A DNA stretch of 64,000 nucleotides, taken from assembly GCA_918797485.1 (NCBI GenBank), contig CAKKNE010000006.1, forward strand, positions 3,162,001-3,226,000, in the 5' to 3' direction. The DNA is from Pelagomonas calceolata (taxonomy: Eukaryota). The position numbers were made by a program, and so were the translations under genes. The first letter of the stretch is position 1, and each line of letters begins with the position of its first letter. Below, in pieces: positions 22,813-56,859 of this stretch. A model generated the notes under the pieces. That model saw only the letters and a list, made by a program, of their open reading frames with translations, ran no database searches and was not told the origin of the DNA.

Positions 22813-24369
22813 ATGGACCAAAATGACGCGACGCGCTGGACGAATCTCGGCGCCTCACTCCTGATCATTCTGGCGGGAGGCACGGTATACGCCTTCGGCG
22901 CGTACTCCGAAGCGCTGAAGAGGAAGCTCCACCTGACCCAGGCCCAACTCGAGCTTGCTGCTTTATGTGGCAACCTGGGGAACTATCTCGGGACGGCGGG
23001 CTTCTTCTACGACCGTTATGGTGCGGTCGCCTCCGCGAAATTCGGCGCGACGCTGATTGGTCTCGGCTACGGGCTCCAGTGGCTCCTCTGTGTGTATTTC
23101 GCGAGTGAACACGCCATTGAGTTCCTATGCGTCTTCTGCTTCGTGTGGGGCCACGGGAGCGGTTACCTGGACTGCGCGGCGATTGGGAGTGGTGTCCGGG
23201 CGTTTCCGAGGAGACGAGGGGCTGTTGTGGGGTTGCTCAAGTCGTTCTACGGCCTGGCGTCCTCTCTGATAATTCTGGGCGCGGCGCCGTGGTTATCAGG
23301 CGTCAATTTCATCGTCGCGCTCGCGGTCTTCGCGGGCGGCTTGCCTTTGTTGGCTCTCTGTAAATTCGAAGACGTTCCAGACCGCGCGCCGGAGGGCGAC
23401 GCCGTCGATGCTGTGGCCGCGGGCGTCCTCTCTTCGTTATCAATGCGCGTCGTGGGTTTCGCGCTGCTGGCGTTGTGCATCGCCGTTTTGCGCGTGATAA
23501 GGCCGCCGTCAGCGCTGGGTTTTAATGTTGCGTTCTCGCTGGTCATCGCGGTGGGTCTGGCGTGGATCGTGCGCGCCGCCGCGCGGGAGCACAAGCGCGA
23601 GGACGGCCTCTACGAGAACCGGGAGGACGAGGAAGAAGAGGACGCCGCCCCGACGCCCACGACTCCAGAGCACGACTCGCGGCCCTGCGCGACCCTAGGA
23701 TCGCCGAGCTATTGGCTCCTGCTCCTCGCCATCTTGCCGGGCACCGGCATGGGTTTGATGACGATCAACAACCTCGGCCAGATTATATCGGCGCGCGGCG
23801 GCCAGGCGTCGACGCAAAGAGCTGCTACCGCCGTCGTGAGCGTCGCGAACGGCCTCGGGCGGCTGGGCTGCGGCGCGCTCGCGGATAAGATTGTACAACG
23901 GGGCCGGCCCCGCGCCGTGCTGCTCGTGGCGGCGGACCTGGCAGGTGCGCTGGCCATGTTTTTGTTTTTTGTGTCTGGGACCTCGGTGCCGATGGCATTA
24001 ATAGCTGCGGCGGTGTCCGGGGCGGCGTACGGGGCCATCTGGACGCTGATTCCCACGCTCGCCGCGGATTTGTTCGGGCGGAAGCATTTTGGTGCTAATT
24101 ACGCCCTGATCCTCCCGGCGGTGAGTCTGGCAGCGATTTTGTTTTCCACCTTACTGGCGCCGGCGGTCTACGCGAGGCACGCCGACGACGACGGCTGCGC
24201 CGGCGCGGCCTGCTTTGGCACGACGTTCCTGGCCACGGCGGCGGCGTGCGGCGGCGGCGCCGTCATGGCTCTTTTGTTGGGAGTCCGGTCGCGGAAGCGC
24301 TACGCGCGCGCCGCGGAGCCGCCGGAGTCTTTGCTCGCCGCGGCGCGGACGGGGGAAACGGTCGTTTGA
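22813..24369 (+). CDS. Nodulin-like / MFS transporter
   Basis: GTVYAFGAYS, FPRRRGAVVGLLKSFYGL, TINNLGQI, LFGRKHFGANY; about 12 TM helices. Confidence 0.9.
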   Translation: MDQNDATRWTNLGASLLIILAGGTVYAFGAYSEALKRKLHLTQAQLELAALCGNLGNYLGTAGFFYDRYGAVASAKFGATLIGLGYGLQWLLCVYFASEHAIEFLCVFCFVWGHGSGYLDCAAIGSGVRAFPRRRGAVVGLLKSFYGLASSLIILGAAPWLSGVNFIVALAVFAGGLPLLALCKFEDVPDRAPEGDAVDAVAAGVLSSLSMRVVGFALLALCIAVLRVIRPPSALGFNVAFSLVIAVGLAWIVRAAAREHKREDGLYENREDEEEEDAAPTPTTPEHDSRPCATLGSPSYWLLLLAILPGTGMGLMTINNLGQIISARGGQASTQRAATAVVSVANGLGRLGCGALADKIVQRGRPRAVLLVAADLAGALAMFLFFVSGTSVPMALIAAAVSGAAYGAIWTLIPTLAADLFGRKHFGANYALILPAVSLAAILFSTLLAPAVYARHADDDGCAGAACFGTTFLATAAACGGGAVMALLLGVRSRKRYARAAEPPESLLAAARTGETVV

Positions 24370-24461
24370 TCGATCGTGGTTTTTGTTTAATGATGTCCTT
24401 TGTCTTATCAGCTCCCGCGCTCTAGCGCGAAGCTTCTTCTTTGCAAAGCTGCGGCAATTCA

Positions 24462-24483
24462 GCTAGCGGAGTAAGACACTAGC
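24462..24483 (+). promoter_or_regulatory. Double-CTAG upstream motif
   Basis: gctagcggagtaagacactagc upstream of DPH3. Confidence 0.65.
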
Positions 24484-24735
24484 TTGAAGCCTCGTGCGCA
24501 AACGCTGGGGGCTGGCGACAGTACGCTGGTACAGTACCAGTACCTCTCAAAACGGAGGTTTCCGCTGGCTTGCGCTGCGCGTAGCGTGGCTCGCGTCTGA
24601 CCGGATAGAGAGCACCGCTTAGAGCTTTACACTAGCATAGCAACTCAGCAACACGCCGCCGGCGCGCTAGCACATAGCAACCCACAGCCTGCAACACGCC
24701 GCCGCCGGCGCGCAAAAGGAAGAACCCAGCCGTTC

Positions 24736-24951
24736 ATGCCAGGCATCTACGAAGACGTCCCCATCGGGGACATGAGCTACGACGCCGACGAGCAACTGTA
24801 CCAGTACCAGTGCCCCTGCGGCGACTTGTTCGAAATTACGCTCGAGGAGCTTTGGGACGGCGACGACATCGCCCACTGCCCGTCCTGCACGCTCAAAGTG
24901 AGGGTCATCTTCGACAAGGAGCAGCTGCCTCCCTTACCTCCCGCGGAATGA
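24736..24951 (+). CDS. DPH3: Diphthamide biosynthesis protein 3 (CSL zinc finger, KTI11)
   Basis: IYEDVPIGDM...YQCPCGDLFEI...AHCPSCTLKVRVIF. Confidence 0.93.
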   Translation: MPGIYEDVPIGDMSYDADEQLYQYQCPCGDLFEITLEELWDGDDIAHCPSCTLKVRVIFDKEQLPPLPPAE

Positions 24952-26252
24952 TTCACTCGATGCAGCGCGACCGCGAGCGGCGGCTCCGGAGGAAGCCGCG
25001 GCGGAAGCGCGGCCTCGTCGCGTGTCTGATCGCGCTGACCGGCGTCGCGTTACTCGGGAACTTACTGACGTCGCCTCATTTAGAAGAGCCGACGACGGAC
25101 GCCGCGCATAACCCGCCGGGCTACCGGCCACCCGTCTTGGATCCCGTGGAGGCGGACGCGCGGGCGGCCGCGGCCGCATTGAGTATAGTGGACGCCCTGC
25201 CGCCGGCGCCCAGGATCGCCTACGCCGTGACCGTCACGGAGGAGCCCAAGGCTTCCAGTGTCGGCTTTCTGGACGGCGCCGCGGTCCTCGCGCAGTCCGT
25301 GCGATCGGCGCATAAACGGTCGACGTACGGCGCGCCGGCCTTTGTTGCCTTCGTCTCGCCGCGGATCTCACAAAGAACGCGGGCCTCGCTGCGAGGTATT
25401 GGTTTTAGAAGCATCGAGAAGCAATTGCCCATCGTTCCTGACAAAATAGAGGGTTCATTTCTCAGGAAGCTCTGGACTGAGCCAAATGAGAAGTTCCCGG
25501 ACCCGACGATGAGGGGAGGCTGCTGCGGCGCCTGGGAACTCCTGAAATTATATGCCTGGACCCTGACTGAATATGAACGCGTGATCCACGTCGACATGGA
25601 CTGCCTCCTGCTCCACCCCATCGACGAATTACTGTCTATAGACGCGTCACTCGTCTACACGGCGGACTACAACATGATGAACGACAACCAGCGGAAGAAC
25701 CGGTTGACGCCGGCCGTGCAGGGCGGGTTCTTGGTCGTGCGACCCTCTCATCAGGTGTTTGAGGCCCTCGTGGCGTTGATGCAACGGGGCAAGTGGGGCG
25801 GCAAGTGTTCCGGGTGGGAATGCACGGGCGTGGGCCATTGGTGGGGCGGCGCGACGATCCAAGGGTTATTACCTTACTTCTACGATCGGCACGCCAAGAC
25901 TCTAACGATGGCGCGGGCCTCGGACCTCAAGGCCGTCGAGGTCGACCGGTGCGTCTACGACAACATGGGGGATAAAGCAGTGGTCAATCCCTTGCCGTAC
26001 GTCGGGTGCAGCGCCGCGCGGCAGACGCCTTTTGACGACGTGAAGTTCGCGCATTTTACGGTCTGTCAAAAGCCGTGGACCTGCAACCCGGCGCGCGACC
26101 CCGACGACGACAAGAAGATCTGCCTCGCGCTGCACGCGGCGTGGTTCGACATCCGCCGCGAATTCGAGGAGGAGCACGGCATGCCGTCGGAGAAGAAGGT
26201 CTGCCGGCGGGGCTACAAGAAGATGGCGTTTCCCGCGGGGTTCGGGGAGTAA
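24948..26252 (+). CDS. Glycosyltransferase family 8-like type II membrane protein
   Basis: Basic tail + TM (GLVACLIALTGVALLG), KLYAWTLTEYERVIHVDMD (DxD), QGGFLVVRPS, HFTVCQKPW; first in-frame ATG overlaps the DPH3 stop (second ATG at 24960). Confidence 0.88.
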   Translation: MIHSMQRDRERRLRRKPRRKRGLVACLIALTGVALLGNLLTSPHLEEPTTDAAHNPPGYRPPVLDPVEADARAAAAALSIVDALPPAPRIAYAVTVTEEPKASSVGFLDGAAVLAQSVRSAHKRSTYGAPAFVAFVSPRISQRTRASLRGIGFRSIEKQLPIVPDKIEGSFLRKLWTEPNEKFPDPTMRGGCCGAWELLKLYAWTLTEYERVIHVDMDCLLLHPIDELLSIDASLVYTADYNMMNDNQRKNRLTPAVQGGFLVVRPSHQVFEALVALMQRGKWGGKCSGWECTGVGHWWGGATIQGLLPYFYDRHAKTLTMARASDLKAVEVDRCVYDNMGDKAVVNPLPYVGCSAARQTPFDDVKFAHFTVCQKPWTCNPARDPDDDKKICLALHAAWFDIRREFEEEHGMPSEKKVCRRGYKKMAFPAGFGE

Positions 26253-26314
26253 AATGAAGTTTGTTAGTCATGCTACTTGGGGTGGGTTCAATGAGCGACT
26301 CTCTCTCTCTATGC

Positions 26315-27173
26315 TCACGCGAGCGCCTTGACGACGGCCTCCGCGAAGGCTTCGGCCGACTGCGGGTTCTGGCCAGTCACTAAGTTGCCGGAGACGACGA
26401 CGTGCGACGTCCACGGGTCGCCCTTGCTGTACTTGCCGCCCTTGCCCGTGAGGCCCTGCTCGTTCGAGCCGGAGAATGGCTTGACGGCCTCCGTCTGTCC
26501 CACCTGCTCCTCTTCGACATCAGAGAAGCACGTGACCTCGAGGCCGGCGACGAGCGGCGTGCCGTCGGGCTTGGTCGCCTCGATCAGCCCGATGGGGCCG
26601 TGGCAGACCGCGCCGACGACCTTTCCGGCGGCGTATGTGCCCTCGACGACGGCCTTCAGCGCCGCCGCCGCGGGGCCGTAGAAGTCGACGCACCTGTGTG
26701 ACGCCGTCGACGCGACTCACGCGACTCGATTTCCACACAGAACACGCACGTCCCGTGGCCTCCGCACAAACAGACGGCGTCGTACTGGCCCGCCATCGAC
26801 GCGTCGACCTTGACCGAGTGCGAGAGCGCGCCAAAGGCCTTGGCGTCGTGCATGAACGCCTTCGCGTCGGGAGCGAAGAACGGCTCGGCCAGCGAGCCCG
26901 CGTCGATCGGCACCTGTGCATAAATCAACCAGTGAGTCGGGCCGATAATTCTTCACTGTGACAAAATAATTCGTCGACGACGCGAACGCGCCGTGAAATT
27001 TTGGTTTATGCACAGATCGGCACGGCGCCGCCGGCGATCGACGCGATCGTCACGTCGAAGCCGGCCTTCGTGAAGACCGTGTGCGGCTCCGCGAGCTCGG
27101 AGATCCAGAGGCCCGTCGGGTGCTCGCCCATCTGGCCGGCGCTGGTGCTCACGAGGAGGACTTTTTTAGCCAT
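26315..27173 (-). CDS. DJ-1/PfpI (Hsp31/glyoxalase III-like) protein; exons 27173-27024, 26913-26750, 26693-26315
   Basis: KKVLLVSTS, TGLWISELAEP, YDAVCLCGGHG, AVCHGP, NLVTGQNPQSA after splicing; 231 codons in frame. Confidence 0.92.
26694..26749 (-). other. GT-AG intron of the DJ-1 gene (degenerate introner-like)
   Basis: gtgcgt repeated at both junctions; ctgtgtg / cacacag inverted ends; removal gives GGHGTCVDFYG. Confidence 0.85.
26914..27023 (-). mobile_element. Intact introner element (intron-generating DNA transposon)
   Basis: Perfect 8-bp TSD atcggcac at 26906-26913 and 27016-27023; 15-bp TIR ctgtgcataaatcaa / ttggtttatgcacag (14/15). Confidence 0.93.
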
Positions 27174-30440: not shown

Positions 30441-33400
30441 CTATATCGCGGCCAGGATCTCCTGTTTCTTCTGCTCGTACTCGGCCGGCGTGATGAACTC
30501 TTGAACCTCGTTGAGCTCCCTGAGGCGCTGCTGGGGGGACTTTGGATCCGAGGGAGCCGGGGGAGCCGGGGGAGCCGGATGCGCGCTCGAGCCAAACCAG
30601 CCCAGGTCCCAGGCCGACGCTGGCGTCGCGGGCGACACGGGCACGGCAGGCGACGTCGAGCCGAACCAGCTCCGGGCCACGTCCCAGGGCGTCGCTTGCG
30701 CGGGAGGGGGGCGGCACTCGACCTCGGCCTCGGGCCGATACCCCCGCCCGTGCTCGACCACGTATTTGAGCTCGTCGCGGAGCCGCCGGAGGTCCGGGTC
30801 GAACACCTCCGGAAAATCGAGCACGCGCAAGGCGCGGTCCAGCGGTTCTAGCCGCGACAACGGCGGCGGCGTCGCGGACGCGCCTGCGCCTTCGCACACC
30901 TCCTTGGCCATCCTTTCATACGCGAACAGCTTGTTCAGAATAGCCACCCCCAAGCCGACCGCGTACGGCTGCCCCTTAAGACGCTTAATGAACGGATGCG
31001 ACGCGCACATGGTCACCACGTGGGGCGGGGCAATTGGGGGCGGTTGCAGCCTGTTCGGGTTCGTGGCGCGGCGCTTGAGCTCGGGATCCCGCTGCAGGAG
31101 CAGGAAGGCGGTGTGGTCGTCCGTCATCCGGCCCAGCGGGATGATTTGCTCCGTGACACCATGCACCTGGCCGATGCCCGAGAACGACGAGCACGTCATA
31201 AGCACTTTTAGGTTCGAGCACGATTCCAGTAAACCCCGCAGTAACAGTCGACAGTGTTCTCTCGCTCGTTCTTTGTCGCCGGCCGTGACGACGAGTCGTT
31301 CAAAATCGTTCAGGACCACGAGCGTGGGCCCGGCGTGTGCCAAATGCGCCAGTGCGGAGGTGTCGAGCTCATGGGTGTCGAGGCGCGAATATGTCACGTG
31401 CTTGAAGATCCCCGCCGCTTCGTGCTGCTCCTGTTTGCGCTGTGCCTCCCTACTGTCCAGCGAGAAGTCGTCGTCGTCCGTGGAAGATCGCAGCCGCCTC
31501 GTGGACAGCGACGACGAGTACGTGCTCAGTCGCCGGTCGAGCGCCGCGCGCATGGGAGCCGCCTTCTGGATGACGTGCGCCGCAGCCTCGGCCACGTGGT
31601 GGAAGAAGCCGTCCCTTGTCGTGACTTTCACCCAGACGACGGCGTCGAAGTTCTGATGCTGTGAAACGTGAGCCGCCGCTTTTGCCGCCAGAGCGCTCTT
31701 ACCCGAGCCGTATCCACCACCAATCGTCGTGAGACGATGGTTGAGGATGGACTCGACGCAGAGCCATAACTCGGAATCCCGGCCCACGTAGAACGTCGGC
31801 GGCGGCGGCGCGTTCGAGGGCGGCGGCGGCCGCGTCGTTTCGTGGAACGACCCGGGGATCTCGGAGAAGATGGGCTCGTCGTGGGGTTGGTCCTCCGGGA
31901 GCAGTATGAAGCGCCCGTCGGAACCCTGCGTGTTTTGCGCCGCGGCGCAACCGATGTCGAAGGCTGTGCGTAACGAGTCCATATTAGCCAAAGATCGGTA
32001 GAACGCCCGGCAGAATTCTATGCCCGCGCGATCGGAAATTCTGCCATGGTTCTGGTTTTGCGCCACGGCAACCACGTGTTCCACGCCCGCGGCCACGAAC
32101 GCTCGCCCAACATCTTCGCTCTTGCACGAGTTTAACACCACCAATTTGCATGTCTCCGCGCCACAGGCCGACACCCGGTTTCTCAGCACCGTCGGGTCCA
32201 ATGTTTGCGCGCCGCCGTGGTCGTCTTCGAACATCATAAACTTTTCGTGGCCGTGGCCGGCAAAATGCACCACACGCGCCCCCAGCGTCACGGCCGACTG
32301 GAACGCGTCCACGGTGGCGGTGCGGATCTGGAGCTCAACGTCAATGTTCGCGTGAGCTGCGGCTTCGCGCAGCGCCTTCCGCAGCTTGTTGGCCTCGCCC
32401 TCGAGATTTAGTTTGGCGATCCCAGGGTTCAACGGCTCGCTCTGCAGCATGACGACGCGGTTCGCCAAAATCGCGCGGCTCGACTGCCGCTGCGGCGGCG
32501 AGCGGCTTGGCACAGGCGACGCAGGCCCGCCCGGTGGCGGCGAGGACGTCGCGCCGCCCGGCGGCGGCGAGGACGTCGCGCGCGGGACGTAGGCACCGTC
32601 GACGGCGCGGGCCGTCGACAGCGATAGCAGGACGCGTTGAAGGGCCTCCTGCTCGGTCGAGCTGTGGGCGACGAGATGCACCCGTTGGAGACCTGGATAC
32701 GCCATGTCGCCGATAGCCTTCACCGCGACTTTTAGCACGTTATCCAACGACTGTCTCCCGAGGCGGTTGCCCGCCGACAGCAGCGAAAATGCGACCGTCT
32801 TGCACTTGAGTCCATTGGCGCGCCGCATCGACGCTCGGTAGGCGTCCCTTAACAGATCGTCGCCCCTGGATAAATCATCGTCCATCTCCTTGTAGTTGGG
32901 ACCGACCGCGTGGATGATGGCTTCGCACCTCAGATAATTAAAGGGCCCGCCTGTGGTGACGACGGCGTCTCCCGTAAGACAGCGCGTGTCGCCGCTGATG
33001 ATGGGCAAGGCCTGGCGTTTCTCCGCTAATAACGCACCGCCGGCTCGTGAGATCGCCGCGTCCACGCCGGCGCCCTCGAGGCAGCTCTCTTTCACCGCGT
33101 TCACGAGCGCGTCCGTTTTTGCGTCCACCAGGCTTCCGGCCGAGGCCACTAACTCGCCGTATTTCAACGCGTGCCGCGCCAGGGGTACCAGGTTGTCGAC
33201 CAGTCCGCCGTGGTGATCCCAGTTATCGAAGTGGGCCTTGTGGTAGACTGGCTCCGTCCGTTGGATTCTTAGAGGTATTTCTTGGGGGGAGGGCGGGTCC
33301 GGCATCGTCTGGGCGCGCCGCACCGGGACGTACTCGCTGTTGAGGGCGAACTCCTCCGAGGCCGTTCGTCGCATATTGGAGGAGGCGTCCGAGAGGGGCG

Positions 33401-33494
33401 CCTCAGTTATTTCTGCTGCGCAGCGGTCCCGTACCTGGCGCGCCCGGATCGGCGCTCCAGGCTCCAGCGCCGGGCTCGCGCACCGGTCCGGCAT
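30441..33494 (-). CDS. Macro domain + CHAT (caspase-like) protease + STAND-like P-loop NTPase + SHOCT-like tail
   Basis: Macro: DALVNA, GAGVDAAISRAGG, GDAVVT, IIHAVGPNY, TVAFSLLSAG; CHAT: VVHFAGHG, LVVLNSC; NTPase: YVGRDSEL, GGYGSGKS, LVVLNDFE; tail ITPAEYEQKKQEIL. Confidence 0.88.
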   Translation of the reverse strand: MPDRCASPALEPGAPIRARQVRDRCAAEITEAPLSDASSNMRRTASEEFALNSEYVPVRRAQTMPDPPSPQEIPLRIQRTEPVYHKAHFDNWDHHGGLVDNLVPLARHALKYGELVASAGSLVDAKTDALVNAVKESCLEGAGVDAAISRAGGALLAEKRQALPIISGDTRCLTGDAVVTTGGPFNYLRCEAIIHAVGPNYKEMDDDLSRGDDLLRDAYRASMRRANGLKCKTVAFSLLSAGNRLGRQSLDNVLKVAVKAIGDMAYPGLQRVHLVAHSSTEQEALQRVLLSLSTARAVDGAYVPRATSSPPPGGATSSPPPGGPASPVPSRSPPQRQSSRAILANRVVMLQSEPLNPGIAKLNLEGEANKLRKALREAAAHANIDVELQIRTATVDAFQSAVTLGARVVHFAGHGHEKFMMFEDDHGGAQTLDPTVLRNRVSACGAETCKLVVLNSCKSEDVGRAFVAAGVEHVVAVAQNQNHGRISDRAGIEFCRAFYRSLANMDSLRTAFDIGCAAAQNTQGSDGRFILLPEDQPHDEPIFSEIPGSFHETTRPPPPSNAPPPPTFYVGRDSELWLCVESILNHRLTTIGGGYGSGKSALAAKAAAHVSQHQNFDAVVWVKVTTRDGFFHHVAEAAAHVIQKAAPMRAALDRRLSTYSSSLSTRRLRSSTDDDDFSLDSREAQRKQEQHEAAGIFKHVTYSRLDTHELDTSALAHLAHAGPTLVVLNDFERLVVTAGDKERAREHCRLLLRGLLESCSNLKVLMTCSSFSGIGQVHGVTEQIIPLGRMTDDHTAFLLLQRDPELKRRATNPNRLQPPPIAPPHVVTMCASHPFIKRLKGQPYAVGLGVAILNKLFAYERMAKEVCEGAGASATPPPLSRLEPLDRALRVLDFPEVFDPDLRRLRDELKYVVEHGRGYRPEAEVECRPPPAQATPWDVARSWFGSTSPAVPVSPATPASAWDLGWFGSSAHPAPPAPPAPSDPKSPQQRLRELNEVQEFITPAEYEQKKQEILAAI

Positions 33495-33951
33495 GGTCTG
33501 GGCTGGCTCCGTCTGTTTCCTGTTTTTGTGCTGTTTTGGTGCTGTTTTGGGTGCGGCTTGGACGGGGGCAGCCTCTGCCGCACTGGGCTTCTAAATCTTG
33601 AGCTTGCTTGCGCGCCCGTCCGGCTGGCTGGCACGGGGGGCAGCCCAGATGGCAGCCTGCCGCTGCTTCTGCCCCGCCGGGCCCGGGGATCTTGAGCTTC
33701 GGGCTAGTGTCTTACAGTCCCTAGTCCTAAGCATAGCAGCAGTCTTACAGGCCGCTAGCTTGAGGCCCCGAGACCCGGGAATCGCACGAGATATGGAACA
33801 GAGTAACACTCCCCCAAGGCTCGAGCCCTCCAGAGAACACTAGCGCAGAAAGCGACAAAGCCCGCGAGGCTGTATGACTCGGACAGTACCTAGTATCATG
33901 ATAAAAAATTTAAATGATAACGGCCAAATGCGAATAAAACGACGGCTGTTG

Positions 33952-36300
33952 TCACCGCCGCGCCTCGTATAAGAGCGCGACCGCGAGGACGTCAAGGACG
34001 AGGTGGACGACCGCGTCCAAGCGCACGTTCAGTACGAGGGCGTCCAGCGCCCCGCGCTCGGCCGCGTCGGCCGCCAGGCGCACGCCCCAGACCGCGGCGA
34101 GCGCTATCGCGAGCTGGCGCGGCTCGACGCTCGGCCCCAGGGCCCAGGGCGACGCGGGCGCGGAGGGCACCGCGGGCGTGGAGGGCGAGGCGACCGTGGA
34201 GGGCGACATGGGCGCGTCGAGCTGGAACTCGGGGGGCGGAGCCCAGGGCGACACGGTCGACGTGGGCGACGTGGGCGACGCGGGCGCGCCGTCGGGCCGA
34301 TACCTCCGCCCGTGCAGGACCACATGGTTGAGCTCCTCGCGGAGCCGCCGGAGGTCCGGGTCGAACAACTTCGGTTCGTCGAGCACGCGCAAGGCGCGGT
34401 CCAGCGGTTCGAGTTTCGACGCCGGCGGCAGCGTCTTGTGCGCGCCCGCGGCCTCGCATGCGGCCTTCGCCGCCTCTTCCGACGCAAACAGCTTGTTGAT
34501 TATAAGCACCGCCAGCGAGACCGCGAACGGCAGCCCATTGAGACGTTTCACGAACGGATGCGCCGCGTACGCGACGACCACGCTAGGAGGCGCAATTCGG
34601 GGCGATTGCCGCTTGAAGGGGTCCGTGGCGCGGCGCTTGAGCTCGGGGTTCCGCTGCAGGAGTAGGTACGCGGTGTCGGAAGGGGTCATCGGTCCGAGCG
34701 CGACGACCTGTTCCGTTACGCCCGGCACGAGGCCGATGCCCGAGCCCGACGAGCACGTCATCAGCACGCTGATGTTCGAGCAGCTTTCCAGTAAACCCCG
34801 CAGTAACAGTCGACAGCGTTCTCGCGCCGCTATCTGGGCCGCGGCGACACCCTGGCCCCCAAAGCCGTTCAGGACCAAATTTTCGAAATCGTTCAGGACC
34901 ACGAGCACCCTCCCGGCGCTCGCCAGGTCCACCAGGATGGAGGTGTCGAGCGCGGACGTGTCAGCCGTGTCAATAGAAGTACTCCTCTTCTTAATATGCA
35001 TCATTTTCTTGTTCATGGGATTCAGGTGGTCGTCCTCCGCCTTCTGGATGACGTACTTAGCCGCCTCGGCCACGTCGTCGAAGAAGCGGTCGGCGGTCGT
35101 GACGTTCACCCAGACCACCGCATCGAAGCGCCGGTGCTGCGACGCATAGTCCGCCGCTGCCATCGCCAGAGCGCTCTTACCCGAGCCGTATCCACCACCA
35201 ATCGTCGTGAGCCGATGCCGCAGCATGGACTCGACACACACACACTGGTCGGACGCCCGGCCGACGTAAAACGTCGGCGGCGCCGGCGCGTTCGAGGGCG
35301 GCGGCGGCCGCGTCGTCTCGCGGAACGACCCGGGGATCGGGGAGAAGATGGGCTCGTCGTGTGGTTTATCCTCCGGGAGCAGTATGAATTGTCCGTCGGA
35401 GCCCACCTCCCCGCGCATCTCCTTACGCGCGGCGGCGCAGCCAATATCAAAAGCTTTGCGCACCGAATCCATGTTCGCCAAAGATCGGTAGAACGCCTGG
35501 CAGAACGCGATGCCCGCGTGATCGGAAATCTTGCCATTATTCTGGTCCTGCGCCACGGCGACCACGTGTTCCACGCCCGCGGCCACGAGCGCGCGCCCAT
35601 TGGCTTCGCTGCTGCACGAGTTCAACACCACCAGTCGGCACGTGTGACGCCGGCCGGCGCCCGCCGACACCAGGCGCTGCAGCGCCTGCGGCTCCAGGGC
35701 CCGCGCGCCGCCGTGGCCGTCCTCGAACATCATGAATTTCTCGTGGCCGTGGCCCGCGATGTGCACGACGCGCGCCCCCAGCGTCATGGCCGATTGCAGC
35801 GCCTTCACGGTGGCGATGCCGACCTTGAGCTCGACGTCGACGTCGTTCGCGTAGGCGGCCTCGCGCAGCGCCTGTCGCAGCTTGTTGGCCTCGCCCTCGA
35901 GGTTCAGTTCGGCGAGCTTCGGGAGCTGGCGAATGTCGCCCCTTACCTTCAAATCGACGCCCAGCGGCTTGCTCAGCAGCACGTGGACGATGTTTGCCGG
36001 CGCCTTGGACGGCGGCGAAGGACTTTCGGATTCGTGACAAAGCATGGATGCCGTCTTAGTCCCGTGCTCGGGCCAGACCGTGTCGACGGCGCGGTCGTGG
36101 GCCGGCGAGCTCGGCCAGATCGAGTCGATCGCGAACTCCTCCGAGGCCGAGCGCCGCATATTTCTATTCGTGGAGGAGTCGTCCGAGAGGGGCACTGGCT
36201 CCGGCATCGTCTGGGCTCGCTGGACGAAGCGGTCCTTAAACGACGACGGATCGTGGTCCGCTTCGTTTTCCAGCGTCGGGGAGGCGCTCCGGTACGCCAT
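33952..36300 (-). CDS. CHAT protease + STAND-like NTPase, tandem paralog with hydrophobic C-terminus
   Basis: VVHIAGHG, LVVLNSC, YVGR, GGYGSGKS, LVVLNDFE; extensive identity to 30441-33494; no Macro domain; two hydrophobic C-terminal segments. Confidence 0.88.
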   Translation of the reverse strand: MAYRSASPTLENEADHDPSSFKDRFVQRAQTMPEPVPLSDDSSTNRNMRRSASEEFAIDSIWPSSPAHDRAVDTVWPEHGTKTASMLCHESESPSPPSKAPANIVHVLLSKPLGVDLKVRGDIRQLPKLAELNLEGEANKLRQALREAAYANDVDVELKVGIATVKALQSAMTLGARVVHIAGHGHEKFMMFEDGHGGARALEPQALQRLVSAGAGRRHTCRLVVLNSCSSEANGRALVAAGVEHVVAVAQDQNNGKISDHAGIAFCQAFYRSLANMDSVRKAFDIGCAAARKEMRGEVGSDGQFILLPEDKPHDEPIFSPIPGSFRETTRPPPPSNAPAPPTFYVGRASDQCVCVESMLRHRLTTIGGGYGSGKSALAMAAADYASQHRRFDAVVWVNVTTADRFFDDVAEAAKYVIQKAEDDHLNPMNKKMMHIKKRSTSIDTADTSALDTSILVDLASAGRVLVVLNDFENLVLNGFGGQGVAAAQIAARERCRLLLRGLLESCSNISVLMTCSSGSGIGLVPGVTEQVVALGPMTPSDTAYLLLQRNPELKRRATDPFKRQSPRIAPPSVVVAYAAHPFVKRLNGLPFAVSLAVLIINKLFASEEAAKAACEAAGAHKTLPPASKLEPLDRALRVLDEPKLFDPDLRRLREELNHVVLHGRRYRPDGAPASPTSPTSTVSPWAPPPEFQLDAPMSPSTVASPSTPAVPSAPASPWALGPSVEPRQLAIALAAVWGVRLAADAAERGALDALVLNVRLDAVVHLVLDVLAVALLYEARR

Positions 36301-48090: not shown

Positions 48091-48711
48091 TTAGGTTATG
48101 AACGCGACCCCGGCGGCGCACTCGTCCCTGTGCCCCGCGAGCCAGTGCGCCTTGCGGCACGCGTCCCCGCAGTAGCGCGGCCCGCCGCAGCCGTCGCAGC
48201 GCTCTAACGGTTTGTCCTCTGGCCGCTGGCCGCAGCTGTCGCAGACGCGGCCGCGCTCGGCGCGCGCCGCGGTGGCCCTCCGAGCCCGCTCCTTCAGGGC
48301 CGCGAGCTCGGCCTTGCGCCAGGCGAGGTCGGCCTCCTTCCGCAAAATTTGCGAGCGCAGCTCCATCTCTTCCGCCCGATCCTCGACGAGCGCGACGACG
48401 CGGCCTCGTACCGCTTCGGGCAGGCGCGCGACGGCCAGCCGGATCTCCTTTACTTTTTCGGCGACGATGGCGCCACCGTAGCCCGCGTCCCGGAGCCGCT
48501 CGAGGGCCCGGAACTCGCTCGCCACACGCGCCACCGCCACGGCGGCGTCATCTGGCGGCGGGAGGGTCGCCGGACTATTTCTCCCGGAGCTCGATTGCGG
48601 CGGGAGGGTCGCCGGACTATTTCTCCCGGAGTTTGATTGCGGCGGCGGTACGGAGGGCGGTGGTGGAGGGGTATTTGCTGCCGGGGCGGCCCGGGCCGTC
48701 CAGTTGTTCAT
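48091..48711 (-). CDS. Protein with C-terminal MYND zinc finger
   Basis: CDSCG...[30 protein letters not shown] overlaps the NOP10 stop. Confidence 0.82.
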
Positions 48712-48905
48712 AGCGCATCGCGTTCTTTTTGCGTGGGCAGTAGCCCAAACCGCTTCTTGCACGCGAGGCGCTGCGCGCTGAACTTGTCGTCCGGCGAGAA
48801 GCGCGCGGGGTGCGCGCTGAGGGTGGGTTGCTCTTCCTCGCCGTGGGACTTTTTGAGGGTGTAGACGCGCTCGCCCTTCTCGTTGAGGTAGTACATGAGG
48901 TGCAT
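48708..48905 (-). CDS. NOP10: H/ACA snoRNP subunit NOP10
   Basis: [19 protein letters not shown]...[14 protein letters not shown]...[10 protein letters not shown]. Confidence 0.96.
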
Positions 48906-49314
48906 GGTTGTCGGGGGAGCTGCGGCGCTCGTCAGGCGAACCTGTGATGAGTTAGGCTGGCGCTGCGGCGAGTGTCGATTTTGAGTGGAGGGCAAGGAGC
49001 TAGCGGCTGTGAGGCACTAGGCAAGGCAAAACAGCAGGAGGGAGGGCGTTTCCAATTCCCGAGACGCGTCTCGTCCCCGCCGGAAGGATCGGCGCGCATT
49101 TGGATCCAAAATCAGCGGCTGTCACTTTACCAAAAGCCAAGTGCTTATCACTTCCTGTTGCTGCCGGTTGAAGCTGCGTGCCCGCCTAGCAGCCAGGAGC
49201 AGGCGCGGCGGAAAGCCGTAACGACGCGCGCTGCAGCGCGCTTGTGTGTAACCGTTCTCCGGATTCCCCGCTGCTCCTGATTTTCCCAATCTTAGTGACT
49301 AGCGCTGCTGCGCC

Positions 49315-50136
49315 ATGGCCGAGCACCTGCAGGTGGCGGATGCTGACACGGCAGCATTACAAGCGCGGCTCGACGCGCTGGAGAGCGAGACGCACTCGCT
49401 GCGCGAGGTCCTCACGGAGCGGCTCAAGCGCGACTCCTTGGACGAGGCCCTGCCGACGGGGCGCGGGCAGCGGCGGTCGCGCGACAAGCCGCGAGGTTCG
49501 AGAAGTTCCCGCGGCTCGTTTGAGCGAAGATCGCGGTCGCCGGAGCCGCCGTCGGGCGGCCGGTTCCGGTGGGTCCGCGGCGACGACGACGCCAAGAGTT
49601 TGGCGCGACTCGTGGTCGGCGCCGCGATGCCCGACGCCGTCGTCGGCTTCCCCGTGGACCTGCACGCGAAGTACGAGGCGAACGTGAATACGGCGCTGAA
49701 GGGCGTCGCGATCGCGGCGCGGCGCTGCCTCGAGGACCGCGACTTACATTTAGCCTGCGCGCCGCGGTTCCGGGACAACCGCAACGAGCTCACGGCGAGC
49801 GTCTACCCTCTTCTGGAACGACCTCCCGACCCGGACGCGCCCGACGTCGAGGTCCTGACCGTCGCGCGCGCGACGGACTACCGCGTCCTTGCGGGTGCGG
49901 TCGCGAAGCGCGCGCGCGACGGGCAAACTTCTCGGTTAAGAGCCATCGGCGCCGCCGCCGTGTTTACCGCTGCTAGAGCGGTCGCGACGGCGCGCGAGTA
50001 CCTGGCCGACGACGCGACGCGCTCGTCGGTGGCCTGCGTGCCGCGCTTCGCAACCGTACAGTTCGACGGCCGCGCGGAAGAGACGACGATCCTCGAGGTC
50101 GTCGTCTTCCGCGTCGCCGTCGACTCCGACGACTAG
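49315..50136 (+). CDS. Tandem SpoVS-like (Alba-fold) domain protein
   Basis: VLTVARATDYRVLAGAVA...LRAIGAAAVFTAARAVATAREYL...CVPRF, plus a degenerate N-terminal copy (NVNTALKGVAIA...CAPRF). Confidence 0.75.
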   Translation: MAEHLQVADADTAALQARLDALESETHSLREVLTERLKRDSLDEALPTGRGQRRSRDKPRGSRSSRGSFERRSRSPEPPSGGRFRWVRGDDDAKSLARLVVGAAMPDAVVGFPVDLHAKYEANVNTALKGVAIAARRCLEDRDLHLACAPRFRDNRNELTASVYPLLERPPDPDAPDVEVLTVARATDYRVLAGAVAKRARDGQTSRLRAIGAAAVFTAARAVATAREYLADDATRSSVACVPRFATVQFDGRAEETTILEVVVFRVAVDSDD

Positions 50137-52993: not shown

Positions 52994-53180
52994 TCCTAGC
53001 GCGGACCGTCGGCTCCGGTTCCGTCGAGTGTGTATGAAAACTGAGCTGGAGTTGATATAATGTCCCATTTGGACGGGAGATGGCGGCGTCAATCGCTGGT
53101 GTACTTTGGCAAGGTATAAGACTCATCAGCGAATGTCGCAGCGGGCGGTGTTCCGGGAGGCAATGAGGGTATCTTCCCGG
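52994..53180 (-). repeat. Dispersed repeat copy B
   Basis: Inverted copy of 37767-37951. Confidence 0.88.
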
Positions 53181-54122
53181 AGGCGTAGATGCAAATCTGA
53201 AGATCTGCAGTCATTTACTTATCGCAGTACTCGATGATTTCAAGTTCTCGAAATAATTGCACCTGCGCGGACGTACCCTTCTGATTCGGAAGCTCGGCCG
53301 GTCGGATGCGACGAACGATGTCAGAGACGGCTCCTCGCACACCAAAAATCGCGTCGGAGTCAATGATTTCGTACTGAACTGCCGGCGCTGCTCCGCGAGC
53401 CGCGAGCTGGCCTGGAGTGAGCCCGAGTTTCCGGCGCGGCGCGAGCGGTACCTGGGCCTCTCAGGCGCAGCTGCGCCGTCCGGGCAGGTCGCCGAGGCTC
53501 GTCATAGAGTCAACTGGGCGTGTTGGTCTGGTCTGCAGCGGCTCCGGCCGTCTGCACCGCGCTGGCGCCGTGGATGGCCACCGCCCAGATCGTTCTGCGC
53601 TCTGCGATTTTTTTGATTCGCAAAGTGAAATTACGCCCCCCGACCGGGTCCGCGGCGCGCCCGCGCAGCAGGAGGGCTCGGGGGCCTTAGGGGGACGGGT
53701 CCTAGCGGGTTTCTACTTTCTGGGGACGCCTGATACCCGTCACAAGGCCGACGCCGGCGCGGACGGGCGGCCCGGCCTCTGCGCCCGGCGGGCGAGTCCG
53801 CGGCGCGGGCGCGGCGCGGGCGCGGCGCGGGAGGCCTCCTGAGACTTGGGAGAGAGATTTCTACGGAGTTACTAGTCGCTAGAGGCCCATTGCCCACCAG
53901 CTTCGGAATTCGACGTTCGGGTTTTTCGCCCTTTTGCCGGGTTCTGGCGAGCCCCATATCAATACCGAACGTTCTAGGACATCATGGGACGGCTCCTGGC
54001 GGGTTCCTACTTTCTGGGGACGCCTGACACCCGTCACGAGGCGGCCGCGGGCCCGAACGGTAGACGACGCTAAATGTACCTTTACCAAAGAAAGAAAGAG
54101 CACGCTTCTTAATATTCACAAG

Positions 54123-55145: not shown

Positions 55146-55394
55146 CGTCTTTACGTCTGCGGCGACGGCGTGGGGTGCTTTTTGTTTGGAGGTCTCTGAG
55201 AGCTGATGGGTTTCAGAGAGACCGAGGGCCGTTGCGCGGCTCGCGGTCGACACGAGGCGCTGGCGGGTTCGCCCAGGCAAGCGGGAGAGAGCTCGCCTGA
55301 ACCGGTAGCGCCGGCGTTGGCTGCGTTTTTGGGCAGGAGCTGGAGCCCAGATTATTTTCTAGTGTGTTACTTCTGTTAGCTAAGTTTACCCTCA

Positions 55395-56261
55395 TTACGC
55401 CGTCGGAGACGACGGAGCGCGCCCGAGAGACCCTCCACCGAAATCGCGCCATCGCGAGGAGCGCCTCCGGAAAATCCGACACACAACAAATGCGGCGACG
55501 CCCACCGCGGCGCCCGTCAGATGTGCGCCGTGGCCGATATTATCCTGAGCGTCGATGAGGCGCCACTCGTGCACGAAATAGAAGCACGAACTCACGACGT
55601 GCAGCACCGCGTTGGCGTCGCACCGCCTTCCGAGAAGCAGCGCCTCGGCGACGACGCAGGTGTCGATGGCCACGAACGCTGACACTCCGGCGGAGGCGCC
55701 TATGGAGCGAATATTTTCGTTCACTTTTTTCGCCACGGCGTGCACGGCCGTCCTCCGCGCCTCGTCGAACGCCTTGGAGATTTTGTCGCCCAGGCGCTCA
55801 CCCACCACCTCCGAGGCACCCGAGAGGTTGAAGACCCGTCGGACCCGCTCGCCGATGCCCCACCGCTCGACGATGCGCTCGAGGCGCTGCGTGCCAAAGT
55901 CGAAGGGGTCCAGGGCCGCCGCGATGCCCGCGGCGACGTACGTCACCATCGCTCCGTTGACGCCTAAGGTGTCCGTTGCCGCCGGCCCGGCGACGAGGAT
56001 CGACTGCAGGTTGGACAGCGCGTGCGCCTGGTTCCCGTGCAAGAGCATGTAACTCGCCGTCGTCCACCAGCGGCCCTCGCGCAACGCCTGCCGGCTGAAC
56101 GTGAAGTGCTTTTCCAGCGTATTCATAGAGAGCGGCAGCGCTATTGACAAACGCGGCTCCCTTCCAGAGGCAGCTGCGAGTGTCGGTATTAGCGCGTGCA
56201 GCGCCAATAAAGGCGAGAAGTCGCCGGCAAACGCCACGACGCGTTCGAACGAGCGGTTCAT
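55395..56261 (-). CDS. Rhomboid-family intramembrane serine protease
   Basis: GRWWT, HGNQAHALSN, GASAG (catalytic Ser), HGAHLTGAAVG (catalytic His); ATG overlaps the LYR gene stop. Confidence 0.87.
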   Translation of the reverse strand: MNRSFERVVAFAGDFSPLLALHALIPTLAAASGREPRLSIALPLSMNTLEKHFTFSRQALREGRWWTTASYMLLHGNQAHALSNLQSILVAGPAATDTLGVNGAMVTYVAAGIAAALDPFDFGTQRLERIVERWGIGERVRRVFNLSGASEVVGERLGDKISKAFDEARRTAVHAVAKKVNENIRSIGASAGVSAFVAIDTCVVAEALLLGRRCDANAVLHVVSSCFYFVHEWRLIDAQDNIGHGAHLTGAAVGVAAFVVCRIFRRRSSRWRDFGGGSLGRAPSSPTA

Positions 56262-56488
56262 CACTTCTTGGACTTGTTCAGGCTCTTCATCACGAGGTAG
56301 TTCGACAGCGCGCGGACCGCGTCCGCTTTCAGCTTCGAGATCTCGGCCGCGTCCGTCACGCCAATATGTTTGCGGAAGCCGTCCTTGACGACTTGCTTGA
56401 GCGCTCGGCCCTTCGCCGAGTCGCCTCCAATATGATGCGCCGTGCGCAGGCAGTCGCGGAAGAGTTGTAGTGTTGTGCGCTCGAGCAT
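56261..56488 (-). CDS. LYR-motif (Complex1_LYR) small mitochondrial protein
   Basis: TLQLFRDCLR...VKDGFRKH...DAVRALSNY; 75 aa. Confidence 0.87.
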   Translation of the reverse strand: MLERTTLQLFRDCLRTAHHIGGDSAKGRALKQVVKDGFRKHIGVTDAAEISKLKADAVRALSNYLVMKSLNKSKK

Positions 56489-56859
56489 CGGCCGCTGCTG
56501 GGCCTGCACCGCGTCTAGACTACGAACAAATGGCAGCAAAGCTTTGCTCGACAGCGTGGCTGCTGGAGAGTAACTCCAAGGCCTTCGAAGCCTGCCGCAC
56601 CACGCGTTTAGCAGCGTTGGCAACTTGCGAGAGCTTCCTAGTGTGTCTAACCATTAGCTAATCACAGGCTCGGCTTTGTTGCGGCTGCTCAGGCACGCGC
56701 GAGTCGCGCAGGACTCGTTCGGGCGATCTCGGTACTCGCCACAGCGCCTGCTCACGCGCGCGGCTCATAACTGTCGCCAGATTTGGCGTACAGGTGCGGT
56801 GCTCTCTGAGAGCACTGTTCAGCAGCCTCAAAATCCGTGCGCGCGGCCTCGCGACAGCC

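What the first reader, a model, noticed from the sequence alone, without database searches (positions are those of the whole stretch)
24736..26252. Candidate bicistronic locus 1: DPH3 stop overlaps the GT8 start (ATGA)
Seen: DPH3 TGA (24949-24951) overlaps the first in-frame ATG (24948-24950) of a complete GT8 glycosyltransferase. There is no intergenic space, and the double-CTAG motif occurs only upstream of DPH3 (24462). The same layout, a small conserved ORF of 65-75 aa whose stop overlaps the ATG of a long ORF, occurs three times in this 64 kb. Known: ATGA/TGATG overlaps mark translational coupling in bacteria and some viruses, and polycistronic nuclear mRNAs have been reported in green algae. 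Inference: this alga may use systematic bicistronic expression via termination-reinitiation or leaky scanning.
Basis: partly seen in the sequence, partly recalled or inferred. Interest (0 to 1): 0.85.

Follow-up and report, generated by a model that had tools for sequence, protein, structure and literature searches.

The report
Two-protein messenger RNA in pelagophyte alga
In a marine pelagophyte alga the small DPH3 gene ends on the very letters where a sugar-transferase gene begins, related algae keep the pair butted together, and both proteins are likely made from one messenger RNA, a layout known from green algae but not found in print for this group.

Summary
The ATGA overlap of DPH3 (71 aa) and a GT8 glycosyltransferase (434 aa) is real. 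Stranded poly(A) RNA-seq (4 runs, one sample) shows 5' ends only at 24511-24533, level depth across the junction, no splice joint and one poly(A) end at 26266. Both ORFs are under purifying selection. All 5 pelagophyte-type DPH3 loci with downstream DNA carry GT8 at -4, -1 or +3 nt, including an Aureococcus-type one, so adjacency is kept while geometry and frame change. NOP10/MYND and LYR/rhomboid show the same layout; the 6 other tandem pairs lie 231-457 nt apart. Best reading: a nuclear bicistronic mRNA (about 0.85), GT8 likely reached mainly by leaky scanning past a weak DPH3 start; stop-start reinitiation is a serious rival. Not shown: full-length molecules, translation of both products, a genome-wide excess. 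Depth rises 1.5-4 fold in the 3' half of GT8, unexplained. Green algae have such genes, overlaps included; I found none in print for stramenopiles. This scan noted a similar locus in a diatom.

The parts
24463..24482 (+). Double-CTAG element (CTAGCGG..GTAAGACACTAG type), candidate promoter element, 29-31 nt before the main 5' end
   Evidence: 16 sites vs 1.95 expected; leave-one-out matrix score 31.7 here, at most 4.9 inside DPH3; kept upstream of DPH3 in L001, L002, L007; function inferred
24511..24533 (+). RNA 5' ends (likely transcription start) of the DPH3-GT8 transcript
   Evidence: Piles of molecule ends at 24511, 24513, 24533 in 3 of 4 runs; depth steps from 1-4 to 13-63
24513..24735 (+). 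223-nt leader without any ATG, with a short internal duplication
24736..24951 (+). ORF1: DPH3/KTI11 CSL zinc finger, 71 aa; weak start context (T at -3); second in-frame ATG at codon 13 (G at -3)
   Evidence: PF05207 E 4e-20; dN/dS 0.017-0.25 against 4 relatives; contexts
24948..24951 (+). ATGA stop-start overlap
   Evidence: ATGA in L001, TAATG in L002, L003, L004, TAG-aga-ATG in L006
24948..26252 (+). ORF2: GT8-family glycosyltransferase, 434 aa, basic N-tail, one hydrophobic segment at about residues 22-40, DxD (DMD) at 216; predicted type II membrane enzyme; second in-frame ATG at 24960
   Evidence: dN/dS 0.064 overall and 0.071 in the first 50 alignment columns against L002
26266..26266 (+). 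Poly(A) site of the transcript, 14 nt after the GT8 stop
   Evidence: 6 reads with an A tail in X22; fragment ends at 26227-26259
24407..24407 (+). Poly(A) site of the upstream MFS gene (separate transcript)
   Evidence: 5 reads with an A tail in X23
48091..48972 (-). Second candidate bicistron: NOP10 (48708-48905) ATGA MYND-finger ORF (48091-48711); 5' end at 48972
   Evidence: depth falls from 46-128 to 2-20 in the 3' half of the MYND ORF in raw runs but not in X1 contigs (40.9 vs 42.1)
55379..56627 (-). Third candidate bicistron: LYR protein (56261-56488) TGATG rhomboid (55395-56261)
   Evidence: even depth in 3 raw runs and one X1 contig over both ORFs; rhomboid N-terminus conserved from this ATG, next ATG 45 codons on

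Best explanation
DPH3 and the GT8 glycosyltransferase overlap at ATGA and likely share one unspliced, polyadenylated nuclear mRNA (about 24513-26266), from which both would be made as separate proteins, GT8 likely mainly by leaky scanning. Steps: (1) shown: overlap, 5' ends upstream of DPH3 only, level depth across the junction, no splice joint, poly(A) after GT8; (2) shown: both ORFs under purifying selection and the adjacency kept between Pelagomonas-like and Aureococcus-type loci; (3) inferred: some scanning ribosomes start at the weak DPH3 AUG (pyrimidine at -3), the others pass it and codon 13 and start at the GT8 AUG (purine at -3) that sits on the DPH3 stop; (4) inferred: ribosomes that finish DPH3 may add to GT8 output by restarting on the spot. 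The partners have no evident common pathway, so the small gene likely shares a promoter rather than forming a functional operon. Confidence that the mRNA is bicistronic: about 0.85; that leaky scanning is the main route: about 0.6 of that.
For: RNA: first mates almost all on one strand; 5' ends pile at 24511-24533 and nowhere between there and the GT8 start; junction bin depth 49.8/32.4/18.8/40.2 against DPH3 mean 45.0/32.4/19.0/42.4; GT8 5' part/DPH3 ratio 0.76-1.03; no joints; A tails at 26266 and, for the upstream gene, 24407. Promoter-type element upstream of DPH3, NOP10 and LYR, none inside these ORFs; the matrix found the LYR and ubiquilin sites, which were not in its training set. Selection: DPH3 dN/dS 0.017-0.25; GT8 N-terminal 50 columns 0.071 vs L002, so the 5' end of GT8 is coding. 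Conservation: 5 of 5 pelagophyte-type loci with DNA past the DPH3 stop have GT8 at -4, -1, -1, -1, +3 (L003 and L004 are near-identical); L006 DPH3 is letter for letter the Aureococcus anophagefferens protein P0101. For scanning: -3 base of the DPH3 AUG is C or T in the window and 6 of 6 pelagophyte-type loci, but A in the 2 DPH3 loci with no downstream ORF (L005, L008) and a purine in 20 of 24 single genes of the window; the GT8 AUG has a purine at -3 in the window and 5 of 5 loci; no ATG in the leader; no out-of-frame ATG in DPH3 before the junction, against 2 and 4 in L005 and L008. This is the pattern tested by mutation in green algae (PMC11892635, passages).
Against: Short reads cannot show whole molecules; all four raw runs are one sample. 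Depth dips to 10-29 at 25172-25333 (GC 0.68-0.70) and is 1.5-4.0 fold higher in the 3' half of GT8 than over DPH3: 3' or GC bias, or an extra transcript starting inside GT8; 8 molecules end at 25307 in one run; 3 loose-end rows were not shown. No protein evidence for either product (one search found nothing; 11 of 17 files searched). Against scanning: each of the three loci has an AUG with G at -3 between the ORF1 and ORF2 starts; NOP10 has a strong start (A at -3); the DPH3 leader is 223 nt against green-algal medians of 54-83 nt; lack of out-of-frame ATGs is not significant (P(0)=0.15 under the window's codon usage; weak ORF1 start in 2 of 3 loci vs 4 of 24, Fisher p 0.11). dN/dS of the first 50 GT8 columns is about 1 against the distant L003 and L006 (dS saturated, alignment poor).
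Confidence: 0.52

Rival explanations
1. Same bicistronic mRNA, but GT8 is made mainly by coupled termination-reinitiation: ribosomes that stop at the DPH3 TGA restart on the overlapping AUG.
For: Stop and start stay within -4 to +3 nt through three geometries and a change of frame; 3 of 3 loci in the window are at -4 or -1, against 0 of 35 Chlamydomonas rows and 6 of 43 Auxenochlorella rows at 3 nt or less (Dataset S01); AUGA and UAAUG are the textbook stop-start forms and efficiency falls with distance (PMC5972666, passages); in-frame internal AUGs (DPH3 codon 13, LYR codon 67) do no harm under this model; NOP10 has a strong start. The N-terminal MTITESM is identical between L003 and L006 while the next residues diverge.
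Against: No conserved TURBS: UGGGA lies 99 nt before the end of DPH3 in the window, L001 and L002, where it encodes Trp-Asp, and is absent in L003, L006, NOP10 and LYR; no conserved or unusually stable fold at the junction (z +0.4 to +2.1 in 4 DPH3 junctions; covariation term +1.12); a weak DPH3 start in every lineage is not expected; the three loci were found because they overlap, so the tightness is partly ascertainment; a compact genome can erode spacers to zero.
Confidence: 0.3
2. Two overlapping monocistronic transcripts: DPH3 mRNA runs on into GT8 as 3' UTR, and GT8 has its own start inside DPH3 that the reads did not resolve.
For: Higher depth in the 3' half of GT8 and a dip at 25172-25333; not every gene carries the CTAG element (3 of the 24 single genes have no CTAG within 300 nt), so its absence in DPH3 proves little; internal monocistrons accompany polycistrons in Cryptosporidium (PMC11761812, passages).
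Against: No depth step or 5'-end pile before the GT8 AUG (ratio 0.76-1.03); the rise begins about 460 nt inside GT8, so such an RNA would lack the membrane anchor; it gives no reason to keep stop and start within 4 nt across genera.
Confidence: 0.11
3. One fused DPH3-GT8 protein made by splicing, read-through or frameshift.
For: An NCBI model for Aureococcus (KAK7253229, P0102) joins DPH3 to GT8; in L006 the two ORFs are in frame, separated by TAG AGA.
Against: No splice joint in 4 of 4 runs; the frame differs between lineages (-4, -1 versus +3); no slippery heptamer in the 90 nt before the GT8 AUG in 4 loci; the fused model replaces the anchor with an unrelated-looking stretch; 0 of 7 longer DPH3 relatives carry a GT8 domain (weak search, it also missed P0102).
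Confidence: 0.03
4. Bicistronic, but the overlap is incidental: GT8 really starts at the second ATG (24960) and the ATGA is a by-product of a TGA stop after an A.
For: The second ATG (tcgATG) is kept in the window and 5 of 5 loci.
Against: The first ATG is kept too, also behind TAA and TAG stops; the spacing between the two ATGs changes by 6 nt, in frame; the second ATG has T at -3 in all, the first a purine.
Confidence: 0.04

Closest known systems
Nuclear bicistronic genes of green algae translated by leaky scanning (Gallaher et al. 2021, PMC7896298; Duenas et al. 2025, PMC11892635 / preprint PMC11291117)
   Same: Short conserved ORF1 then long ORF2, own start and stop each, weak ORF1 and stronger ORF2 start context, arrangement kept between genera, LYR proteins among the members, overlapping stop and start in some Auxenochlorella loci.
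   Different: A stramenopile, not a chlorophyte; all 3 loci and 5 orthologous loci lie within -4 to +3 nt (medians 183 and 40 nt in the two green algae); DPH3 leader long (223 nt); DPH3, NOP10 and rhomboid were not found by name in the supplements searched (these tables mostly carry gene ids, so this is weak); no long-read, Ribo-seq or proteome proof here.
Coupled termination-reinitiation at AUGA/UAAUG stop-start sites (caliciviruses, influenza B; a few cellular mRNAs; review PMC5972666)
   Same: Stop-start geometry AUGA, UAAUG, UGAUG with a few nucleotides of play.
   Different: No conserved UGGGA TURBS motif or structure; nuclear housekeeping genes; ORF1 only 65-75 codons; coupling untested.
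Prokaryotic translational coupling at ATGA/TGATG overlaps (PMC6728339, search listing only)
   Same: Same overlap words.
   Different: Eukaryotic poly(A) mRNA with cap-dependent scanning; partners are not subunits of one complex.
Polycistronic transcripts of Cryptosporidium (PMC11761812) and, as cited there, red algae
   Same: Non-trans-spliced dicistrons in a compact genome.
   Different: There often accompanied by internal monocistrons; none seen here before the GT8 start.

Membership tests
Green-algal-type nuclear bicistron | Both ORFs on one mature mRNA, exclusively (long reads) | tested here: inconclusive
   Short reads fit (one 5' end region, level junction depth, one poly(A) end) but no long reads; 3' excess unexplained
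Green-algal-type nuclear bicistron | Two separate ORFs, not joined by splicing or a shared frame | tested here: met
   No joints in 4 of 4 runs; frame differs between lineages
Green-algal-type nuclear bicistron | Both ORFs translated (Ribo-seq, peptides) | not testable with these tools
   Only indirect: purifying selection on both; one search found no DPH3/NOP10 entry in the files searched
Green-algal-type nuclear bicistron | Short ORF1, long ORF2 | tested here: met
   216/1305, 198/621, 228/867 nt
Green-algal-type nuclear bicistron | Weak ORF1 and stronger ORF2 start context | tested here: met
   Met for DPH3/GT8 in the window and all relatives and for LYR; not for NOP10; judged on the -3 base only
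Green-algal-type nuclear bicistron | AUG depletion upstream of ORF2 | tested here: inconclusive
   0 ATG in leader, 0 out-of-frame in DPH3 vs 1.7 expected, P 0.15; one in-frame internal ATG
Green-algal-type nuclear bicistron | Short 5' leader (a tendency: medians 54-83 nt) | tested here: not met
   223 nt for DPH3; 67 nt NOP10; about 139 nt LYR
Green-algal-type nuclear bicistron | Pair kept together in relatives | tested here: met
   5 of 5 informative pelagophyte-type loci; not tested at DNA level for the other two pairs
Green-algal-type nuclear bicistron | ORF2 output falls when the ORF1 start is strengthened | not testable with these tools
   Needs reporter mutants
TURBS-dependent termination-reinitiation | Stop and start overlapping or within a few nt | tested here: met
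   -4, -1, +3
TURBS-dependent termination-reinitiation | Conserved UGGGA motif 40-90 nt before the stop, in a stem-loop | tested here: not met
   At 99 nt in 3 of 5 DPH3 ORFs examined, absent in L003, L006, NOP10, LYR; no conserved fold
DPH3/KTI11 | CSL zinc finger with CPCG and CPSC pairs, about 70-80 aa | tested here: met
   PF05207 71.7 bits, cut-off 29.2
GT8 glycosyltransferase | PF01501 domain with DxD motif | tested here: inconclusive
   23 bits vs cut-off 24.3 for this protein; 12 of 12 relatives hit; DMD at 216 invariant as DxD; profile hits glycogenin E 7e-11; substrate unknown

The most novel reading that the evidence does not exclude
Pelagophytes routinely park small essential genes (DPH3, NOP10, LYR proteins) directly on the start codon of an unrelated long gene, at hundreds of loci or more (3 in this 64 kb), and translate the second gene by TURBS-free stop-start reinitiation: bacterial-style translational coupling as a regular nuclear expression mode in a stramenopile, with the small genes largely missing from annotations.
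Probability: 0.2. Interest if true: 0.85.

Novelty: new variant of a known kind. Interest (0 to 1): 0.6.

Why it matters
It would carry nuclear bicistronic genes into the stramenopiles, in one of the most abundant groups of ocean picoalgae, and with a tighter geometry than in green algae, which makes leaky scanning versus reinitiation directly testable on natural loci. It also points to an annotation gap: the exact GT8 and MYND proteins are on record from a 3.9-Mb contig, while the exact DPH3, NOP10 and LYR proteins are on record only from contigs of 8.4 kb or less, and an Aureococcus model fuses DPH3 to GT8; one-ORF-per-transcript pipelines would drop or fuse such small essential genes (inference). 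A zero-spacer bicistron would also be a simple co-expression tool for stramenopile algae.

Tried and rejected
Whole-genome count: no genome is held for this window. Viral contigs as a source of stray pelagophyte DNA: NOP10 gave 1 distant hit (L012, not examined), the GT8 alignment 0, the promoter pattern 0. The promoter pattern in prokaryote genomes gave 7 loci with only short eukaryote-like pieces, too little for a count. TURBS motif, slippery site and conserved junction structure: not found. Longer DPH3 forms: 7 hits, none a GT8 fusion; P0055 is only an upstream extension. L009-L011 (weak 16-18 aa matches) were dropped unexamined; L007 ends inside DPH3 and was used for the start context only. 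Other small conserved ORFs upstream of long ones: Pfam on 101 ORFs (chosen from 214 ATG-started ORFs of 50 aa or more mostly by GC3 of 0.72 or more) showed none beyond the three; spliced or shorter ones were not covered. Name searches of supplements for DPH3, NOP10, rhomboid: none. No structure or complex prediction was run: no binding is claimed.

Full report
1. The observation. The window is GC-rich eukaryotic DNA; named homologues of the long ORF are pelagophyte (Pelagophyceae sp., Chrysophaeum, Aureoumbra, Aureococcus), so the source is a pelagophyte, probably Pelagomonas-like (inference). DPH3 (24736-24951, 71 aa, PF05207 E 4e-20) ends in ...GAATGA; the same ATGA opens a 434-aa ORF. That ORF has a basic N-tail, one hydrophobic segment at about 22-40 and a DMD motif at 216; it scores just under the GT8 cut-off alone, but 12 of 12 aligned relatives hit PF01501 and their profile hits glycogenins. 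Two more cases exist: NOP10-ATGA-MYND and LYR-TGATG-rhomboid. In a hand list of 30 ORFs, 9 same-strand neighbour pairs have gaps of -4, -4, -1 and 231, 249, 291, 355, 366, 457 nt (the list omits some spliced genes). A purely mechanical count is weak (about 0.8 expected among 45 long ORFs, 3 seen); the weight comes from all three upstream ORFs being conserved proteins.

2. Transcript. Four stranded poly(A) runs of one sample were laid on 24200-26600 (6-12% of each run read). The upstream MFS mRNA ends with an A tail at 24407. Molecule 5' ends pile at 24511-24533 in 3 of 4 runs. Depth over DPH3 (45, 32, 19, 42), over the junction bin (50, 32, 19, 40) and over the first 160 nt beyond it (47, 28, 14, 36) is level. 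No splice joint is listed. An A tail is seen at 26266. Against a clean picture: depth dips to 10-29 at 25172-25333, in a GC-rich stretch, then is 1.5-4.0 fold higher over the 3' half of GT8; 8 molecules end at 25307 in one run; 3 loose-end rows were not shown. An RNA starting near 25400 would lack the anchor and about 150 codons, so it cannot be the source of full-length GT8, but it is not excluded. For LYR/rhomboid, depth is even in 3 raw runs and one contig of run X1 covers both ORFs (55379-56627; a contig does not prove one molecule). For NOP10/MYND, the 5' end is at 48972 and depth is level across the junction, but falls from 46-128 to 2-20 in the 3' half of the MYND ORF in the raw runs (GC 0.75; not seen in X1 contigs), so many NOP10 mRNAs may end inside it.

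3. Promoter clue. CTAG-N10-16-CTAG occurs 16 times against 1.95 expected, consensus CTAGCGG..GTAAGACACTAG. It lies about 30 nt before the DPH3 and NOP10 5' ends and is kept upstream of DPH3 in L001, L002 and L007. A matrix trained on 14 other sites scores 31.7 upstream of DPH3, finds untrained sites upstream of LYR (28.9) and ubiquilin (27.9), and scores at most 4.9 inside the three ORF1s (99.9th percentile of the window 6.4). Some genes lack it, so absence is only supportive.

4. Conservation. A DPH3 search of metagenome contigs gave 11 loci: 8 clear DPH3, 3 weak ones dropped. Six are pelagophyte-type; L007 ends inside DPH3. In the other 5 of 5, the GT8 orthologue follows at once: ATGA (L001), TAATG (L002, L003, L004; the last two near-identical), TAG-aga-ATG (L006). 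L006 DPH3 equals Aureococcus anophagefferens P0101, and an NCBI Aureococcus model fuses the two ORFs. The two lower-GC, more distant DPH3 loci (L005, L008) have no such ORF. dN/dS is 0.017-0.25 for DPH3 and 0.064, 0.17, 0.36 for GT8 (dS near saturation for the distant pairs); the first 50 GT8 columns give 0.071 against L002 but about 1 against L003 and L006. The first GT8 ATG is kept behind TGA, TAA and TAG stops, and the distance to the second ATG changes in frame (12 vs 18 nt), so the ATG at the stop is likely the real start. The frame between the ORFs is not kept, which argues against a conserved fusion, read-through or frameshift.

5. Mechanism. For leaky scanning: the DPH3 AUG has a pyrimidine at -3 in the window and 6 of 6 pelagophyte-type loci, against A in L005 and L008 and a purine in 20 of 24 single genes; the GT8 AUG has a purine at -3 throughout; the leader has no ATG and DPH3 no out-of-frame ATG (not significant, P 0.15). 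For reinitiation: stop and start stay within -4 to +3 nt; 3 of 3 loci are that tight, against 0 of 35 and 6 of 43 rows in the green-algal tables (biased, as the loci were found by their overlap); each locus has an internal AUG with G at -3; NOP10 starts in a strong context. No conserved TURBS motif, slippery site or fold was found. I commit to leaky scanning as the main route for DPH3/GT8 (0.52 overall), with reinitiation second (0.30); the two can act together. That DPH3 serves diphthamide synthesis and the Elongator pathway, and so has no evident link to a glycosyltransferase, is recalled knowledge, not a call.

6. What is known. Seen: PMC11291117 parts 1-2 of 11; PMC11892635 passages, SI part 1 of 5, Dataset S01 part 1 of 4, supplement search; PMC7896298 passages and supplement search; PMC5972666 passages; PMC11761812 passages; bioRxiv 2021.10.25.465678 passages (short single-exon models without protein match were excluded in that P. 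calceolata annotation; its supplements were not seen); PMC13284251 supplement search only, 11 of 17 files. [quoted passage not shown] Searches for native nuclear bi- or polycistronic genes in stramenopiles or pelagophytes (listings of 6-20 papers each) showed none; the library lacks most subscription papers. Two earlier notes of this scan describe like layouts in a diatom and an arthropod-like genome; I did not test them.

7. Verdict. Real feature, very likely a bicistronic mRNA, conserved between pelagophyte genera; works like a green-algal bicistron, membership incomplete (no long reads, no translation data, long leader). New variant of a known kind: new supergroup, zero-spacer geometry. Interest 0.6. 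The genome-wide claim remains open.

Noticed in passing
window 233-63753, 16 sites, e.g. 22638, 24463, 45710, 49000, 63733: Recurrent double-CTAG element (CTAGCGG..GTAAGACACTAG), 16 vs 1.95 expected, near gene 5' ends and often between divergent genes; about 30 nt from mapped 5' ends; candidate pelagophyte promoter element. Not checked in the literature.
   Followed up: partly
window 24953 and 48710, 48731: Minor alleles in RNA reads: T>C at 24953 in 15 of 109 reads (silent, same codon as in L002) and A>C at 48710 in about 12% of reads, inside the NOP10 ATGA overlap; probably sequencing error or strain mixture; needs a DNA run.
   Followed up: no
window 24736-24951, 48708-48905, 56261-56488: The exact DPH3, NOP10 and LYR proteins are on record only from short contigs, while GT8 and MYND are on record from a 3.9-Mb contig: the small ORFs are likely missing from the chromosome-level annotation.
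   Followed up: partly
P0102 (KAK7253229) and L006:34-1557: Aureococcus gene model fuses DPH3 to GT8 and drops the membrane anchor; likely a prediction artefact caused by the bicistron.
   Followed up: partly
window 24626-24720: Short tandem duplication in the DPH3 leader, also expanded in L007 but absent in L001 and L002.
   Followed up: no
L014, L017, L019: Prokaryote MAG contigs that carry eukaryote-like, pelagophyte-like segments with the double-CTAG element next to bacterial or archaeal genes; L017 and L019 share one such segment: likely chimeric assemblies.
   Followed up: no
window 49315-50136: Expressed algal gene with a SpoVS domain (PF04232 E 1e-19), a family known from bacteria.
   Followed up: no
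window 30441-36300: Two tandem CHAT-domain genes, one with a Macro domain.
   Followed up: no
window 53079-53109 and 53577-53626: Many RNA reads match only these 30-50 nt stretches and run on into other sequence: short repeats of expressed genes elsewhere, or distant exons.
   Followed up: no
window 26270-27173 and L003:5589-6284: The DJ-1/PfpI-like gene downstream (family name recalled, no Pfam hit for the 5' piece) is interrupted in the window but a single 231-aa ORF in L003: recent intron gains in the window's lineage are likely.
   Followed up: no
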